Assembly (NCBI RefSeq): GCF_004010195.1 | Contig: NC_057716.1 | Span: 9,984,259-10,048,258 of the forward strand | Direction: 5' to 3' | Source: Chiloscyllium plagiosum | Taxonomy: Eukaryota | DNA length: 64,000 bases | In this document: positions 3,082-45,475 of the stretch, one piece after another | Layout of the letters: every line of letters begins with the position of its first letter | Numbering within the stretch: the stretch's first letter is position 1 | Notes under the pieces: model-generated | The model's input: only the letters and a program-made list of their open reading frames with translations | What the model was told of the DNA's origin: nothing | The model's database searches: none | Program-made: the position numbers and the translations under genes

Positions 3082-3155
3082 CTTTCACCTTGTCTTCCAC
3101 CACTTTTCGGATTCACAAACACAAGAAGTGGATGTGTTCCAGGCACTGTTGTAAT
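3082..3155 (-). CDS. DGKG: Diacylglycerol kinase exon, start of the DAGKc domain: [24 protein letters not shown](R)
   Basis: Acceptor attttacag, donor gtaaat, 74 nt. Contains the hallmark NPKSGG motif; GGRQGER matches gamma (beta has GGKQGER). Confidence 0.93.
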
Positions 3156-11290: not shown

Positions 11291-11612
11291 TAAGACAGCT
11301 ACTGTATGCATAACAGGATCACCTTTATGGTATGGAGATACACAATCACGTTTTAGTAACTGGCTAAGTGATCGATCTTGGCCAAAGCAGTGGAAGAATT
11401 CCCAAATGTTCTTTAAATCATTGATCGTGATCCACCTAAACCAGCAGAAGTAGATTAATGTTCTGGAAGCAGTAATTTCAACAACGTAGTACACCACTCA
11501 TCTACATCGGAAAGCCAGCACAGGTTATATCCTAGGTGACCTTGATGCTACAATCTTCTGATGAAGAGGAATGAGTTTTTAAAATCTGAATCAAAACAGT
11601 AACAAACTTATT

Positions 11613-11984
11613 GATGATTTGGAGATGCTGGTGTTGGACTGGGGTGTACAAAGTTAAAAATAACACAACACCAGGTTATAGTCCAACAGGTTTATTTGGA
11701 AACACTAACTTTCGGAGCGTTGCTTTATCATGAGGTGATTGTCAAGGATAGGAGTGTAAGACAGAATTTAAAGCAAAAGTTTACAGTGTGATGTAACTGA
11801 AATTATATATTGAAAAAGACCCGGATTGTTTGTTCAGTCTTAACTTAATAAACTTTTGCTATAAATTCTATGTCTTACAATCTTATTCTTGACAATCACC
11901 TGATGAAGGAGCAAGCGCTCCAAAATCTTGTGCTTCCAAATAAACCTGTTGGACTATAACCTGGTGTTGTGTGATTTTAAACTT
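11613..11984. mobile_element. Fold-back PLE terminal element (family A) with degenerate hammerhead motifs in both arms
   Basis: Arms aagttaaaaataacacaacaccagg... and ...cctggtgttgtgtgattttaaactt. CTGATGA at 11900-11906. AAACTTATT at 11604-11612 and 11979-11987. Same family as 24665-24881. Confidence 0.85.

Positions 11985-21810: not shown

Positions 21811-21855
<45 letters not shown>
21786..21855. repeat. (GTGA)n/(GA)n microsatellite abutting an assembly gap
   Basis: Read directly from the sequence. Confidence 0.95.
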
Positions 21856-22517
21856 NNNNNNNNNNNNNNNNNNNNNNNNNNNNNNNNNNNNNNNNNNNNN
21901 NNNNNNNNNNNNNNNNNNNNNNNNNNNNNNNNNNNNNNNNNNNNNNNNNNNNNNNNNNNNNNNNNNNNNNNNNNNNNNNNNNNNNNNNNNNNNNNNNNNN
22001 NNNNNNNNNNNNNNNNNNNNNNNNNNNNNNNNNNNNNNNNNNNNNNNNNNNNNNNNNNNNNNNNNNNNNNNNNNNNNNNNNNNNNNNNNNNNNNNNNNNN
22101 NNNNNNNNNNNNNNNNNNNNNNNNNNNNNNNNNNNNNNNNNNNNNNNNNNNNNNNNNNNNNNNNNNNNNNNNNNNNNNNNNNNNNNNNNNNNNNNNNNNN
22201 NNNNNNNNNNNNNNNNNNNNNNNNNNNNNNNNNNNNNNNNNNNNNNNNNNNNNNNNNNNNNNNNNNNNNNNNNNNNNNNNNNNNNNNNNNNNNNNNNNNN
22301 NNNNNNNNNNNNNNNNNNNNNNNNNNNNNNNNNNNNNNNNNNNNNNNNNNNNNNNNNNNNNNNNNNNNNNNNNNNNNNNNNNNNNNNNNNNNNNNNNNNN
22401 NNNNNNNNNNNNNNNNNNNNNNNNNNNNNNNNNNNNNNNNNNNNNNNNNNNNNNNNNNNNNNNNNNNNNNNNNNNNNNNNNNNNNNNNNNNNNNNNNNNN
22501 NNNNNNNNNNNNNNNNN
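21856..22517. other. Assembly gap (662 N)
   Basis: Run of n. Confidence 1.
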
Positions 22518-22626
22518 CCCGAAACGTCGAATCTCCTGTTCCCTGGATGCTGCCTGACCTGCTGTGCTGTTCCAGCAATAAAGTTTCAACTTTGATCTCC
22601 AGCATCTGCAGACCTCACTTTCTCCT
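22518..22626 (+). mobile_element. PLE family B terminus emerging from the gap, with the 3' half of a hammerhead
   Basis: CCC-GAAACGTC-GAAT followed by ...gatctccagcatctgcagacctcactttctcc, the reverse complement of the start at 16391. Confidence 0.85.
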
Positions 22627-24404
22627 CTTGCATGCTTCAATCAATCAATCAATCAAACTCTTAGTCTTCTAAGTTTCAGATGAAACAAGCTTTGCTTGCC
22701 CAACCTTTCCTCATAAGACAGCTCTTAATATTCCAAGTATTAACCTGGTCATTCTTCTCTGAACTGCTGCCACAGAATTTACATCCTTCCTTAAATAAAG
22801 GGACCAATACTATATAGAGTTCTCCAGATGTGGTTTCACCAGTGCCTAGTAAAACTAAAACTTATGTTCACTACTTTCATATTCAATTCTCCTTGCAATA
22901 AACAATAACATTCTATCTGCTTTCCTAATTACTCACTGGACCTATAAACTAACTTTTTTGCGATTAATGCATGAGGACACTATATCCCTCTGCATTTCTC
23001 AGTTCTGCCAAGAATGAACAATTGCTCATTTTCCTACATTATACTGCATTTGTCAGAATCTTGCCATCTCATTTAACCACTTTATTTTTTCCAGGACGTC
23101 TTTTCCCTCTTCATAACTCACTTATTTTCCCTTGTGTCGTTGGAAAATTTGACAACTATACCTTCTGTCCCCTCATCCAAGTCATGATTTAAATAATGGA
23201 CAGTTGATGTCCCAGCCCTGATCACTGTGGCTCATCACTTGTTATACCTTGCTCGCTTGAAAAAGACCCGTTTGAGTCAACTTCCTTTTAGCAAGTTATT
23301 CTTCTACCCATGCTAATATGTGGAACTCTACAACTTAAGCTTTAATTTTCCACAACTGCATTTGATGTTACACTTTATCAAATACTTTTGGAAGCAGCTG
23401 TATAATGCATTCATTGGTTCCTCTTTATCCACAGCAGTTGTTATGTCATCAGAGAACTCTAATAGGTTTGTTAAACATAATTTCCCCTTCACAAAACTAT
23501 GTTAACTCAGCCTGATTGCCTTTCAAGAGTTTAATTTACAATCCATCAGGACCCGGGCACATGTCAAAGTCAAACAGCATAGAAACAGACCCTTCCGCCC
23601 ACCACATCTATGTCAACCAACAAACACAAAAATACACTAATCTCATTTACCTGCACTTGGTGCACAGCCTAGTATGGCCTGGCATTTTAAGGACTCATCC
23701 AGATACTTTTTAAATGCTGTGGAGGTAATTGCCTCAACCACCCTCTCAGGCAGCCCATTCCATACATCTATCACATTCTTGGTGAGAAAAATTCTCTCTC
23801 ATATTTTATCTAAATTACTGGCTCTTCAACTTAAATTATGTGCCCTCTGCTCTGTCCACAGTCTCAGTAATTTATTTAGTACCACTTCTGTGATGATTAT
23901 AATTCAACCTTTCCTTCAATTTCCTGATTTATAATTGCTAAGATATTACTTCTTTAATCAGTAGTGAAAATAGGTGCATAACACCTGTTCAATTTACCGG
24001 CCATCTCCTTATTTTTCACTCTTAATTTTCCAGACTCACTTTCTACAGAATCAATACTCACTTTGTTAAATTCTTGCTATTTAGCTGTTAGATATTTAGA
24101 GAAACTCACACTACCTGGTCTTATATTCTGACTAATTTCCTCTTGAACTCTGTTTTTTTCAGTCGACCTTGCTGTTTTTCCTATTCTGCCCAATTTAATC
24201 AGCAGTCTACTTTTGTAGCTGCCTTTGTTCTCTGCTGAATCAAGAAACGGACCACTGTTGGTTGAATATTTCAACCGAGTCAATGTTAATTATTCGCAAG
24301 AATATAAGAAGCTTAATTCTAAAGGAGAAGGAGAAAAGTAGAGCAAAATGACACTTAAAATGCTCAGGTGTTCTACAAGGAAATCTAAATGGTCAATGTC
24401 TTAC

Positions 24405-24503
24405 CAGAACTACAGGGCATATGTAGGAGGGAAGCAAAATGTGGTCTTTTAGTTGGCCACCGTCACATTCAGGCTTGATATGTGAGACACATTTGTTGTG
24501 AAG
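24405..24503 (-). CDS. DGKG: Diacylglycerol kinase exon, end of C1b: [33 protein letters not shown]
   Basis: Acceptor cctctacag, donor gtaaga, 99 nt, phase 0-0. Completes the H-x2-C-x7-C pattern; CDGG and HILLP are gamma-like. Confidence 0.93.
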
Positions 24504-24717
24504 CTGTAGAGGAAAAAAATAAGCTTTAAGTAACTCAAGGTAGAAGCTAATGATAAACTCAAGGGTCAACAATGGAGGGTTATATAGCAACACTGATTCT
24601 AACATAATTCAACTAAGTCAAAAATCAAAATTCTTGGCTCATTTATAGATATGCATAAAACAATAGTTAAAAATCACACAACACCAGGTTATAGTCCAAC
24701 AGGTTTAATTGGAAGCA

Positions 24718-24752
24718 CACTAGCTTTCGGAGCGTCGCTCCTTCATCAGGTG
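24718..24752 (-). ncRNA. Minimal type I hammerhead ribozyme motif (sense to the DGK pre-mRNA)
   Basis: Minus strand: CAC-CTGATGA-A-GGAGC-GAC-GCTCC-GAAA-GC-TA/GTG. Core intact, 5 bp stem II, 3 bp stem I, palindromic AGCU in place of stem III. Confidence 0.7.
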
Positions 24753-24755
24753 ATT

Positions 24756-24790
24756 CACCTGATGAAGGAGCGATGCTCCGAAAGCTAGTG
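24756..24790 (+). ncRNA. Minimal type I hammerhead ribozyme motif
   Basis: CAC-CTGATGA(24759-24765)-A-GGAGC-GAT-GCTCC-GAAA(24780-24783)-GC-TA/GTG; predicted cleavage after A24787. Confidence 0.7.
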
Positions 24791-25279
24791 TGCTTCCAAT
24801 TAAACCTGTTGGACTATAACCTGGTGTTGTGTGATTTTTAACTTTGTACACCCCAGTCCAACACCGGCATCTCCGAATCATAAAACAATAAGTAGCTTTC
24901 TTCAATATTTTATCAATAGTATTATATTCTTAAAGCCAAATTCAAGGAATAAAATTACATGAAGCACTTGGTGCATAAGGAGCTCATCCTGTCTCTGGAC
25001 ATCCCTGGGTCATCATTCTGAATATTTAATCTGGTAATGATTGTTGCTGCACTTCCCACAATCTTGCGCCTCCCCAATGAATGCTCCCATCTGGAACTTA
25101 ATTCACTCATGTACCGGTTGTGGGTAATAAATCTGCCATGATCACATCCATTACCATTAGAAACATAGAAATTCTATGGCACAGAAACTGGCCAATTGGA
25201 CCATCAAGTCTGCACAACCATTTAAAGAGCATTCCATTGAGACCCACCATATCCTCATAACCTTGAATGCTTTTTTTTT

Positions 25280-38900: not shown

Positions 38901-39892
38901 TGTTTGGTTGTGAAAGACGAGGAATGCATTGAACTCTACCCAGTATGATGATGATATAAGGACCTGATTGGGACAGCAGCCCTGGATCTCCAAAGAGAAA
39001 GACCAATGATCTAGATCTCATTTTTTTTGTCACAATGTTTATCACACCATCCAACTTATACCTAATTGTTATCATTCAATAAACTACATGCTGCTTAGGA
39101 TTAGAGCCTCTTCTTGCCAGACTACCAAGTCGCACTGGACAAAGCAGAGCCCAACTACAAGTAGAATACCTGCAGAAAATCTCCTTTATGGTCACTAAGT
39201 GTCCAGCTAACTCATATAACCTGATAAATAATGCTGAGGATCCATCTTATAACATAGTGCCAGCACAGGACATCACTTCATCTTGCAACACCATGCAGAG
39301 GAGTTTTATTTTACTTTTAGAGGGAACTGCAGTGGAAGCACCAGAATGGATGCATGTGGGGAAATGCAAACTGAAGGCAGGTGTGGCAGCATTTATACAA
39401 ACTTAATTTCAGCAACATCAGGAAGAGTTGTACACTCAAGTGCCACAATTTTACCATCCATGAACAGCATGCAATCAAAACTAAATGAAGTGTTTTTAAT
39501 ATGATGCGAATCAATAGTTAAGGTCTATTTCTTTCATTTTGCCCACGTCTTTTAACATATAGTTTTAACTGAACAAATGGAATCACTGTTATCGCTGTTC
39601 TCCCACCATTTAAAAGGAATTGATTTTAATTGTCTGGATTTTATATAAAATGCTATTAGTTTGAAAAAATCTTAATACAGCAAACAATGACACTCACAAT
39701 TTTTCTTCTTTAATGGAACCCTTGTTCCAAACTGTGCATTTCTAGCTAAGATTTCACCAGCAGTTGGCAATGACTCTTTGCCTGCACTGAGAAACCAGCC
39801 TGCCCTCTAGTGCTCATGAAATTTTGCTCAGTTTTCACAATAATCTTTGCGCATACATTGAAAAAAATGCATGTTATTTCCTCAATACTTAC

Positions 39893-42152: not shown

Positions 42153-44371
42153 CTGAAAAACACAATACAGGGAGGTCAAATAATCCTTGATTCCCAATAT
42201 GGACTTGCCTTATATGTCATCTACTATGTTCATTTTGAAGTTGCATAATTTAAATCATTAACTCAAGCACATAAGAAACAGAAGTAGGTACAGGCATCTG
42301 ATCTATTGAAACAATTATGTTGGTCTCAACTCCACTTTTCTCTCTATCCTCAACTCCCTTGTCAAAAGTCTCTCTAGCTCAGCTTTCAATATATTCAATG
42401 ACTCAGTCACCACCATACTCTGAGGAAGCTAATTCCAAACACTAGAGACCCTCAGAGACAAAATTCCTTTTCATCTTCATTTTCTGTGGGAGACAACTTC
42501 ATCTGAACTCATTCTGAACTCATCTGTGAGAGGAAGTATTTCCTCAACAGCTAACCAGTCAATCCTCTCAGAATCTCATATGTATCAGTAACATCAATTC
42601 TCATCTAAACTTCAGAGTATGGCCCAAGCTGCTTAAATGTTTCCTCATAAGACAAAGCCCTTATTCCAAGAATCAGCCAAGTGAACCTTCACTGAATGAC
42701 TTAAAAAGGAGACCAAAACATTGTACTCCAGGAGTGTTTCACACATGCCCTGTGCAGTTGCTTTTTGTTTTATAATGTTCATGTGAAGTGCCTGGAGACA
42801 TTTTCTGCTGTTAAGATTGTTATAAATGTAAGTTGTTGTTTGTTACACAGCTGAATTGCAATACATTTAGTTCAATAAAGGCACACTTGGGTTATAAAAA
42901 AAGATGTCCACTTACAAATGTGACAATTGTGTGTTTTCTCAAGGAGGAACGCAATTACACTATGTACCATGCTGCCAGTGAAAGGCACACTGAGAAGTGT
43001 TGTCAAGATTGTTCCTCTATTCAGGAATGAACTAAACACATAATCATGGCCACAGTTACTTCCACAGTCATGCTGTGGCCCGAGAGGGATGCATTCTCCT
43101 GCACTCGTACCTGGGAATAAGTGATTTATGCAGAATCCATAAAGTTAGAGAAAAGCCCTTCAATACATGTCGCACTGCCGCATTCCCTATAGACTTTGAC
43201 GATTTTAAAATAACTCCAGGAATGGCCAACCACTTGTTTAATCAAAATTACAGTCAGTGGAACTCAATCAAATCCACCAACAAACTTTAAATGTGATGGA
43301 GATAGTTCAGTGGGTTTTCGAATTTTGTGGGGTGGGGTGGTTTGGGGAGCAGGGTTTCACCCAACTCCCCTATATATGTTCAGCTGCGTGTGTTGAACAG
43401 AGATGCTAGATACTGCTGGTACCTAATCAGAGTTCCATGCTGACTGGAGTCACCATCTGTCCACTCAACATGACACCTAAGCATTCTTGTTGGGCAGGTA
43501 CTCATAGTCCTCAGCTAAATGTGAGCTATTGCAGCTTGCACCTGAATGATGAACAGCCAACGGGAAAGCAATTCTAGAACCAAAGCACTGCTCATAGCAC
43601 ACAAACAAGTAACCAGATTGCTTAAACTAAGTAAGACAACTTATATAAGTGTGGTAATGTAGCGTATTTGCTATTTTGATACCCTTCTCTCAGGATACAG
43701 CTTACTTATTGGACTGAATGATTTTGCTCATCATTGAGACTTTGAATCTTGATGTGGAATCTTGTTGCAGAATAGAGCCTAATGATTGAAATCAAGCCTC
43801 TGTCCTTCTGGAGATAATTTGATTCACCTTGGAAATGCATAAAACTAAAATCGTCAGACTCCTTAAGGGAGTGACTCAAAATGCTGAACGTGACAAAGTA
43901 TCTATAATAAACCCAAATTTGTTGCCTTTCTACATAGCAAGTGAACATGTTTTGAAGTACAGTTACTTTCTTTGCTGCAGCTGATAGGATGTAGAGCAAA
44001 TTTACAGACTGCAGTTACAGACATGAACAATTTATCTGTTTTGATGGTAAAACTACACACAAACATATGAATTAGGAGCAGCAGAAAGCCATGAAGTCCC
44101 TTCAACTCCTGCTCAACTCATGGCTGATCTAACTGTAACCTCAAATCTGCATTCCCACCTAACAACTCTTCACCTTCTTGGTAACAACAACTTATCTATT
44201 CCACCTTACAAATGTTCACTTACTGCTTCCATCACCTCTTCAGGAAGAGGGTTCCAAAGACTCATGACCCTCAAAGAAAACATTTCACTTTATCTGTTTT
44301 AACATGATTTTTAAACAGGAACATTTGGTTCTAGACGCCACTAAAAGAGCAAGCATCATCTTTAACATATA

Positions 44372-45475
44372 TCTGGATCAGTGGTGCTGGAAGAGCACAG
44401 CAATTCAGGCAGCATCCGAGGACAGGCAAAATCGACGTTTCGGGCAAAAGCCCTTCATCAGGAATAAAGGCAGAGAGCCTGAAGCGTGGAGAGATAAGCT
44501 AGGGGAGGGGGGGGGGGGGGAGAGAGTAGCATAGAGTACAATAGGTCAGTGGGGAAGGAGATGAACGTGATAGGTCAGGGAGGAGAGGGTGGAGTGGATA
44601 GGTGGAAAAGAAGCTGGGCAGGTCGGACAAGTCCGGACAGGTCAGGGGACCGAGTTTCTGGAGGTTAGAAGCTAGGATGAGGTGGGGGAACGGGAAATGA
44701 GGAAACTGTTGAAATCCACATTGATGCCCTGGGGTTGAAGTGTTCCCAGTGGCTCAACATTTCAACTCCCCCTCCCACTCTGCCGAGGATATGGAGGTGC
44801 TGGGCCTCCTCCACCACCGCTCCCTCACCACCAGACGCCTGGAGGAAGAACGCCTCATCTTCCGCCTCGGAACACTTCAACCCCAGGGCATCAATGTGGA
44901 TTTCAACAGTTTCCTCATTTCCCCTTCCCCACCTCACCCTCGTTCCAAACTTCCAGCTCAGCACTGTCCCCATGACTTGTCCGGACTTGTCCTACCTGCA
45001 TATCTCCTTTTCCACCTATCCACTCCACCCTCTCCTCCCTGACCTATCACCTTCATCTCCTTCCCCACCTACCTATTGTACTCTATGCTACTCTCTCCCC
45101 ACCCCCACCCTCCTCGAAACGTCGATTTTGCCTGTCCTCGGATGCTGCCTAAATTGCTGTGCTCTCATCTTTAACCACGTGGGAAGGGAAATTGCGGTCT
45201 CTAAAGAAGGAGGCCATCTGGTGTGTTCTATGAACTGCTCCTCCTGGGAGCAGATATGGCGGAGGCGGAGGAGTTGGGAATACGGGATGGCATTTTTGCA
45301 AGAGGTAGGGTGGGAAGAGGTGTAATCCAGGTAGCTGTGGGAGTCGGTGGGTTTGTAGAAAATGTCAGTGTCAAGTCGGTCGTCACAGATGGAGATGGAG
45401 AGGTCCAGGAAGGGGAGGGAGGTGTCAGAGATGGTCCAGGTAAATTTAAGGTCAGGGTGGAATGTGTTGGTGAAA
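44372..45475. mobile_element. Rearranged young Penelope-like element (family B): inverted GIY-YIG/3' termini plus an RT fragment, nested in a CR1
   Basis: ORF track: PLE RT C-terminal region FTNTFHPDLKFTWTISDTSLPFLDLSI...YKPTDSHSYLDYTSSHP (minus) and GIY-YIG tail PVAQHFNSPSHS...LEEERLIFRLGTLQPQGIN (plus). Inversion point near 44740. Confidence 0.9.
44430..44465 (-). ncRNA. Minimal type I hammerhead ribozyme motif with intact core (sense to the DGK pre-mRNA)
   Basis: Minus strand: ATTC-CTGATGA-A-GGGC-TTTT-GCCC-GAAAC-GTC/GATT, with palindromic ACGU in place of stem III and a GUC cleavage triplet. Confidence 0.72.

What the first reader, a model, noticed from the sequence alone, without database searches (positions are those of the whole stretch)
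24654..24890. Near-perfect 179 bp palindrome with an intact hammerhead on each strand, ~160 nt upstream of a DGK splice acceptor
The arms are 89 bp with one mismatch and a 1 nt loop at 24754, and there is a 12 bp TSD (CATAAAACAATA), so the insertion is young. A transcript of either strand makes the antisense copy first and the ribozyme second, so the ribozyme should be trapped in an 89 bp duplex, a self-masking arrangement (inference). In the DGK pre-mRNA the hairpin ends ~160 nt before the acceptor at 24503. There it could be an ADAR or Drosha/Dicer substrate, or affect splicing of the C1b exon. Such a palindrome is also cruciform-prone in DNA.
Basis: partly seen in the sequence, partly recalled or inferred. 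Interest (0 to 1): 0.72.

Follow-up and report, generated by a model that had tools for sequence, protein, structure and literature searches.

The report
Penelope stub palindrome, likely cap run-off
The hairpin is a real, recent insertion of two head-to-head end-pieces of a very common jumping gene, one of thousands like it in this genome and probably of no use to the host gene; the copies suggest that both halves are likely reverse-transcribed separately up to the capped start of the element's RNA.

Summary
The palindrome, the 12-bp TSD, both hammerhead cores and the splice acceptor are as described. The insert is the shortest form of the known Penelope-like element (PLE) insertion: an inverted copy, a direct copy and a 35-nt tail. 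The genome holds 17,370 exact tail matches and 1,992 exact head-to-head junctions. Two related species have the empty site. The hammerhead is the minimal PLE type with no helix III, reported to need a second same-sense copy, so 'self-masking' is geometrically true but probably moot. Nothing supports an effect on DGK. The scan has noted this family before on other DNA of this genome. Arm 5' ends pile just upstream of the hammerhead (88 of 157) and often carry a non-templated G (32 of 81 stub arms versus 1 of 87 longer arms); a second PLE family shows the same. 121 of 126 pairs join one tailed and one tail-less arm, either can be the longer (23:18), and some pairs differ at subfamily sites. This favours two target-primed cDNAs running off a capped RNA over the published self-priming idea.

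The parts
24654..24665 (+). left target-site duplication (12 bp; last base also counted in the arm)
   Evidence: single copy at the empty site in organisms B and C
24665..24753 (-). tail-less arm: inverted copy of the PLE pLTR 3' end; its hammerhead is in sense on the DGK pre-mRNA
24718..24752 (-). minimal type-I hammerhead, minus strand; predicted cut 24721/24720
   Evidence: motif by inspection; activity untested
24754..24754 (.). head-to-head junction, 2-4 nt short of the inferred RNA start on each arm, with at most 1 nt of microhomology
24755..24843 (+). tailed arm: direct copy of the PLE pLTR 3' end
24756..24790 (+). minimal type-I hammerhead, plus strand: helix I 3 bp, extra A after A9, helix II 5 bp, 4-nt palindrome in place of helix III; predicted cut after 24787
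   Evidence: features as in PMC4209133
24844..24878 (+). 35-nt PLE 'tail'; in full-length copies it ends at the ORF start codon
24879..24890 (+). right target-site duplication
24397..24503 (-). host exon of a type I diacylglycerol kinase (end of C1b plus linker); acceptor AG at 24505-24504
   Evidence: DGK naming from recalled motifs plus two Pfam C1_1 hits

Best explanation
This is a recent, species-restricted stub insertion of an abundant endonuclease-bearing Penelope-like retrotransposon, likely made when two target-primed cDNAs, one from each cut strand, started at the element's two internal sites and ran off the likely capped 5' end of its RNA just upstream of the hammerhead before being joined head to head. 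Shown here: the family, the architecture, the empty orthologous site, the pile-up of 5' ends and the non-templated G. Inferred: that the G is the copied cap and the A beside it the transcription start; that each arm is its own cDNA; end joining at the centre; a 12-nt staggered cut. Each arm covers the hammerhead simply because it lies between the priming sites and the RNA start. The locus is most likely a neutral passenger in the DGK intron. Confidence by part: PLE by-product about 0.97; no host function about 0.9; defined 5' end read as cap run-off about 0.7; two separate cDNAs rather than fold-back about 0.75.
For: Family: the unit has 98-100% matches genome-wide; full-length copies run pLTR-ATG-RT-GIY-YIG-3'UTR-pLTR. 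Abundance: 17,370 exact tail matches; 412+1,580 head-to-head junctions, reversed-pattern controls 0. Architecture: 121 of 126 pairs are one tailed plus one tail-less arm; TSD of 8 nt or more in 96 of 121 pairs, mode 12, versus 15 of 601 shuffled. 5' ends: 88 of 157 arms end within 12 nt of the hammerhead's front, 0.029 per nt against 0-0.009 in other bins; only 1 ends at the ribozyme cut. Extra G: 67 of the first 100 of 4,746 non-templated bases at -4, against 22 of 100 one base further up; 19 of 24 versus 3 of 21 true ends (p=1.8e-5); 32 of 81 stub arms versus 1 of 87 long arms. Second PLE family: 17,743 arms break off at one A, 57 of the first 100 with G. Against fold-back: the tail-less arm reaches further in 23 pairs, the tailed arm in 18, ties 18; young pairs differ at subfamily sites in 27 of 187 calls against 58 of 3,497 background. 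Literature: PAc cuts and extends both strands and starts at two internal sites bounding the tail (PMC11167929); an untemplated 5' G is the accepted cap signature for L1 and SVA (PMC4859970). Empty site in three runs of three studies.
Against: No RNA 5'-end data: the cap is inferred only from DNA. An RT that adds a C at any run-off end would also give a G. Many Gs double as 1-nt microhomology with the partner arm (about 6 of 19 by eye). Only about 12% of family-1 arms with an intact front carry the G (estimate), and the focal copy has none. One copy in this window has a G at that place inside longer homology. About one arm in six runs past the inferred start (25 of 157 beyond -37), which needs a second kind of template. 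Most pairs agree at subfamily sites (84 of 126 with no difference; discordance far below random pairing), the focal pair included, and long arms pair with long arms (7 of 59, p=3e-6), so both arms usually come from one RNA or one source. Gene conversion or mutation hot spots could explain part of the discordance, and picking young pairs lowers the background. With unlimited span, ViennaRNA pairs 24533-24557 (possible branch-point region) with the insert at p 0.76-0.99, although local folding leaves the pyrimidine tract and AG much the same.
Confidence: 0.7

Rival explanations
1. The palindrome arises by fold-back self-priming of one cDNA or of an antisense RNA, as proposed for rotifer PLEs, so the second arm is a copy of the first.
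For: Proposed in PMC3846280 for head-to-head PLE palindromes. The focal arms are identical but for one CpG change; 84 of 126 pairs show no subfamily difference; long arms go with long arms.
Against: A copy cannot gain a tail or reach further 5' than its template, so the tailed arm should always be the longer; found 23 tail-less longer, 18 tailed longer. Some pairs carry the extra G on both arms (e.g. the L084/L250 locus). 20 of 54 young pairs differ at a subfamily site, one pair at four sites with 1 of 69 background differences.
Confidence: 0.15
2. The insert is a functional regulatory hairpin in the DGK pre-mRNA: a masked ribozyme, an ADAR or Drosha/Dicer substrate, or a splicing modulator.
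For: A very stable 89-bp duplex is predicted in the pre-mRNA, 150-160 nt from the acceptor; long intronic duplexes are generic ADAR substrates (recalled). Unlimited-span folding pairs the insert with 24533-24557.
Against: Absent in organisms B and C, whose flanks differ by only about 1-3%. Thousands of like hairpins genome-wide. Monomeric minimal hammerheads showed no cleavage (PMC4209133). An RNA-type contig of organism A has the normal exon boundaries (carrier status unknown). Incidental editing is plausible but would not make it a function.
Confidence: 0.06
3. The palindromic stub is a mobile unit of its own (MITE-, SINE- or retrozyme-like), copied whole from master palindromes.
For: Stubs dominate: none of 100 unbiased copies shares more than about 700 nt of element with another; some junctions recur.
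Against: Junctions and arm lengths differ from copy to copy; the 5' G marks fresh reverse transcription of each arm; no tandem arrays seen; the tail lies outside the inverted repeat. Short capped read-out RNAs from promoter-bearing pLTRs could still serve as templates in trans, which is a variant of the best explanation.
Confidence: 0.06
4. The palindrome is an assembly artefact.
For: No listed contig spans the centre at this locus.
Against: Independent contigs enter the element from both unique flanks in the orientations shown; clean TSD and clean empty sites; same architecture throughout the family.
Confidence: 0.02

Closest known systems
Complex insertions of endonuclease-positive Penelope-like elements: inverted 5'-truncated copy, pLTR and 30-40 bp tail (Craig et al. 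2021 PMC8557442; Arkhipova et al. 2013 PMC3846280; passages read)
   Same: Head-to-head inverted copy, tail on one end only, TSD, parent with RT then GIY-YIG, partial tandems.
   Different: Here the commonest product is a 200-230 bp stub pair whose two 5' ends stop at one place, often with a non-templated G; the data do not fit the self-priming proposal of the 2013 paper.
Minimal hammerheads of metazoan PLEs (Cervera and de la Pena 2014, PMC4209133; results and discussion read)
   Same: Type I core, extra base between 9 and 10.1, G10.1-C11.1, palindromic 15.2-16.2 with no helix III; that paper already reports dual motifs 100-700 bp apart on opposite strands and many solo motifs from truncated PLEs.
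   Different: Helix I is only 3 bp here; sharks were not named in the part read; no link to an RNA start was drawn there.
PAc, Poseidon element of Anolis (Frangieh et al. 2024, PMC11167929; main text read, supplements not seen)
   Same: Two internal RT start sites bounding the tail; both target strands cut and extended; hammerhead cleavage not needed for insertion.
   Different: In PAc the tail lies inside the ORF; here it ends at the start codon, and the parent has a Cys-rich RT-EN linker like Neptune/Nematis. That paper does not address 5' ends or how inverted copies form.
L1/SVA untemplated 5' G and twin priming (Hancks and Kazazian 2016, PMC4859970; passages read)
   Same: Extra G read as the copied cap; two primed cDNAs giving an inversion.

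Membership tests
Endonuclease-positive Penelope-like element (parent of the insert) | Reverse transcriptase in the ORF that follows the pLTR | tested here: met
   Pfam RVT_1 E=7e-9, 36.1 bits (cut-off 29.6) in L215; YIDD motif in several copies
Endonuclease-positive Penelope-like element (parent of the insert) | [quoted passage not shown] | tested here: met
   Pfam GIY-YIG E=8e-4, 20.1 bits, just under the 22.6 cut-off; the two Cys and later His are visible in the translation
Endonuclease-positive Penelope-like element (parent of the insert) | pLTRs from partial tandem arrangement | tested here: met
   L208 and L209 carry the unit before the ATG and again after the 3' UTR
Endonuclease-positive Penelope-like element (parent of the insert) | Inverted 5'-truncated copy and 30-40 bp tail at one end, with TSD | tested here: met
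   121 of 126 pairs; 59 of 98 unbiased copies; TSD mode 12
Endonuclease-positive Penelope-like element (parent of the insert) | RT phylogeny within PLEs, sister to telomerase | not tested
   No tree built; no reference RTs fetched
Neptune/Nematis clades | [quoted passage not shown] | tested here: inconclusive
   A C-x4-C-x2-C motif precedes the endonuclease, as PMC8557442 describes for these clades; clade not confirmed by a tree
Minimal PLE hammerhead (type I, dimer-dependent) | Conserved core, extra base after A9, helix II, palindrome in place of helix III | tested here: met
   By inspection on both arms; a second family keeps the layout with a different helix II and a different 4-nt palindrome. 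Rfam finds no match
Minimal PLE hammerhead (type I, dimer-dependent) | Self-cleavage, as a dimer or with protein help | not testable with these tools
   RNAcofold of two units did not return the canonical dimer as its lowest-energy form; only 1 of 157 arm ends lies at the cut site
Non-LTR retrozyme | Tandem head-to-tail repeats of a hammerhead unit | tested here: not met
   Single head-to-head pair with TSD; no tandem array here
MITE / fold-back DNA element | Fixed palindromic unit with terminal inverted repeats copied whole | tested here: not met
   Centres and arm lengths vary per copy; a 35-nt tail lies outside the inverted repeat
pri-miRNA or endo-siRNA source | Discrete small RNAs from the locus | not testable with these tools
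   No raw RNA or small-RNA run was listed

The most novel reading that the evidence does not exclude
Penelope-like elements integrate by double target-primed reverse transcription: one cDNA starts at each of the two tail sites, sometimes on two different RNA molecules, and on linear capped RNA both run off the cap after about 95-130 nt like a retroviral strong-stop, which makes the tens of thousands of hammerhead stubs and palindromes. Long and partial-tandem copies would need another template on which the tail is followed upstream by the 3' UTR (a read-through tandem transcript or a hammerhead-made circle). This would explain the inverted-plus-tail hallmark and map the transcription start of two shark PLE families from DNA alone.
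Probability: 0.5. Interest if true: 0.62.

Novelty: new member of a known kind. Interest (0 to 1): 0.37.

Why it matters
The locus itself is ordinary: one recent stub among thousands, with no sign of a role for DGK. The value lies in the family. How PLEs make their inverted-plus-tail insertions is called unresolved in the papers read (PMC8557442, PMC3846280, PMC11167929). The copies here give three countable signatures: a cap-like G at one base, one tailed plus one tail-less arm with either longer, and arms of different subfamilies within one TSD. These separate fold-back from double priming and can be tested directly in the existing PAc in vitro system. They also point to a genome-wide load of several thousand near-perfect hairpins as a possible background source of double-stranded RNA (inference, untested).

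Tried and rejected
Rfam at gathering threshold: no match in the window. Pfam and PDB with the 36-aa exon alone: nothing; neighbouring exons gave C1_1; the exon with the kinase-domain motif near 3113 was not scanned. No RNA holder listed for the locus; the RNA-type runs laid are contigs, so editing, cleavage and small RNAs could not be read. Run X11 (organism A) does not cover the left flank, so polymorphism within the species is undetermined. 5' ends at the ribozyme cut site: rejected as a main route, 1 of 157. A subfamily with a templated G: rejected as the source of the G excess, 1 of 87 long arms. A splice junction as the source of the G: rejected, the sequence upstream of the G varies and the template has no AG there. 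RNAcofold of two hammerhead units did not give the canonical dimer. Tail 3' ends do not separate long from stub arms: 5 of 24 and 10 of 52 reach through the ATG (the first try was offset by one base and is not used). Lunse et al. (PMC5785218) was not held and is known here only through the review PMC6765202. Searches for an earlier report of a cap G or strong-stop-like run-off in PLEs found none; subscription papers and all supplements were not seen, so this is weak evidence of novelty. Look-up of earlier scan notes by sequence and by the cap wording: nothing.

Full report
Observation. Either strand folds into one long hairpin, z about -25.5, reached by 0 of 200 shuffles. A 35-nt stretch (24844-24878) lies between the right arm and the right TSD. 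The minus strand carries exons of a type I diacylglycerol kinase (two Pfam C1_1 hits; the DGK name rests on recalled motifs seen). The insert lies in a 15.4-kb intron (donor at 39892), 150-160 nt before the acceptor at 24504. RNA-type contigs of two studies match exactly 24397-24503 inside longer contigs.

Real and recent. Contigs of two samples of organism A run from unique flank into the element at both ends (24300-24687, 24858-25200; one study, one sample possibly the source). Single contigs of organism B (two studies) and organism C jump from 24653 to 24879, an empty site with one TSD copy, in flanks about 1-3% different. No listed contig bridges the centre, and a third run of organism A lacks cover on the left flank.

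What it is. The 124-nt unit has many 98-100% copies in the genome. Exact patterns give 17,370 tail matches and 412 plus 1,580 head-to-head junctions with 0-6 and 7-36 nt spacers (reversed controls 0). Longer copies lead through a 3' UTR to a GIY-YIG domain. Near-full-length copies run hammerhead, tail, ATG, RT, Cys-rich linker, GIY-YIG, 3' UTR, hammerhead; the tail ends at the start codon. This is an endonuclease-positive Penelope-like element, probably Neptune-type (no tree built). An adjacent inverted truncated copy and a 30-40 bp tail at one end are the described hallmark of such insertions (PMC8557442, PMC3846280, passages).

How common the architecture is. I took the first 100 tail matches on contig C1 and dropped two (L052, a duplicate of L049; L061, not anchored). 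Of 98, 59 have an inverted arm within 60 nt, 19 further off, 20 none; 19 have both arms starting just before the hammerhead, as here (a few junction alignments are ambiguous). That scales to roughly 3,400 look-alikes as a lower bound. Among 126 head-to-head pairs from all loci then held (partly chosen by junction pattern), 121 join one tailed and one tail-less arm. TSDs of 8 nt or more flank 96 of those 121, mode 12, against 15 of 601 shuffled pairs.

The ribozyme. Both arms keep the core, with an extra A after A9, a 5-bp helix II, a 3-bp helix I and a 4-nt palindrome where helix III would be. This is the minimal PLE hammerhead, which showed no cleavage as a monomer and little as a dimer (PMC4209133, results and discussion read); the anole element's needed the protein (PMC11167929, main text read). 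The monomer fold is worth -8.8 kcal/mol against about -175 for the hairpin, so masking is predicted. But a transcript of either strand holds only one sense copy, so there was probably little to mask.

Where the arms stop. 88 of 157 arm 5' ends fall within 12 nt of the hammerhead's front, 0.029 per nt against 0-0.009 in other bins; one lies at the ribozyme cut. At base resolution, 4,746 arms have a non-templated base at -4 (67 G, 21 T, 12 A of the first 100, hand tally), 3,928 at -5 (22 G, 57 T, 21 A), and 18,184 run on. Reading 30 loci of each kind by eye, G marks 19 of 24 true ends at -4 and 3 of 21 at -5 (p=1.8e-5). In loci not chosen on that base, G stands in 32 of 81 arms without upstream homology and 1 of 87 long arms. 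A second, unrelated PLE family does the same: 17,743 arms break off before one A (57 G, 27 A, 16 T of 100), while of 44,396 that keep the C, 94 of 100 listed run on; 20 of 30 loci read had G, none with upstream homology. Both As sit in initiator-like pyrimidine-A contexts (consensus recalled). An untemplated 5' G is the accepted trace of a copied cap in L1 and SVA (PMC4859970, passages), and Penelope's start site lies in its pLTR (PMC2377424, passages). I infer a capped RNA start just upstream of the hammerhead. Limits: no RNA data; about 6 of 19 Gs could also come from the partner arm; terminal C addition by the RT is not excluded; the focal copy stops 2-4 nt short and shows no G.

How the two arms are made. 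Self-priming (PMC3846280) predicts identical arms with the tailed arm always reaching further. In the unbiased set the tail-less arm reaches further in 23 pairs, the tailed arm in 18, with 18 ties. Arms differ at subfamily sites more than background: 14 of 59, 25 of 90, 9 of 104, 7 of 111 and 0 of 25, against 379 of 7,410; in 54 young pairs 27 of 187 against 58 of 3,497. Against over-reading this: discordance is far below random pairing, 84 of 126 pairs show none (the focal pair included), long arms pair with long arms (7 both long, 4 mixed, 48 both short), and gene conversion or hot spots could contribute. The anole enzyme cuts and extends both strands and starts at two sites bounding the tail (PMC11167929). 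The simplest reading is two cDNAs, usually from one RNA or source and sometimes from two, joined at their ends. Arms that run past the start need a different template (read-through tandem RNA or a circle); this was not resolved.

Host effect. Nothing supports one. The insert is species-restricted and typical of its family. Local folding leaves the pyrimidine tract and AG much the same with and without it, though unlimited-span folding pairs 24533-24557 with the insert. Editing, small RNAs and cruciforms could not be examined. Incidental ADAR editing is plausible from general knowledge and would be shared by thousands of such hairpins.

Novelty. The element type, architecture and ribozyme are in print, and earlier notes of this scan on other pieces of this genome reached the same identification and noticed the pile-up of ends (looked up after my reading was fixed). 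The cap-like G and the arm-length and arm-haplotype tests were not found in five paper searches or in the scan's notes; subscription papers and supplements were not seen. Verdict: new member of a known kind; ordinary as a locus, moderately interesting as evidence on PLE mechanism.

Noticed in passing
window 11611-11984: An older, longer inverted-plus-tail insertion of the same family (about 89-91% identical); both arms carry a G at the inferred cap position inside longer homology, the only long arm with G among 87.
   Followed up: partly
window about 44370-44600 (-): Copy of a second PLE family with its own minimal hammerhead (different helix II and a different 4-nt palindrome in place of helix III); more than 60,000 exact motif matches genome-wide, with the same 5' G pattern.
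   Followed up: partly
L208 (G000:C2:103884300-103892700): Near-full-length partial-tandem copy of the parent element, broken by stops and frameshifts and interrupted by copies of the second PLE family.
   Followed up: partly
window 24844-24878: The tail partly mirrors sequence just upstream in the arm and ends at the ORF start codon in full copies; tail ends scatter over about 12 nt around the ATG.
   Followed up: partly
L049 and L052 (G000:C1, 1.17 and 1.68 Mb): The same insertion with 1.5 kb of flank, 99.7% identical, at two places 0.5 Mb apart: a segmental duplication or an assembly duplicate.
   Followed up: no
junctions listed: Many centres hold short untemplated or locally re-copied pieces of the hammerhead front, as in polymerase-theta-type end joining (comparison recalled).
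   Followed up: no
window about 21850-22550: Assembly gap (run of N) next to a GA microsatellite in the intron downstream of the exon.
   Followed up: no
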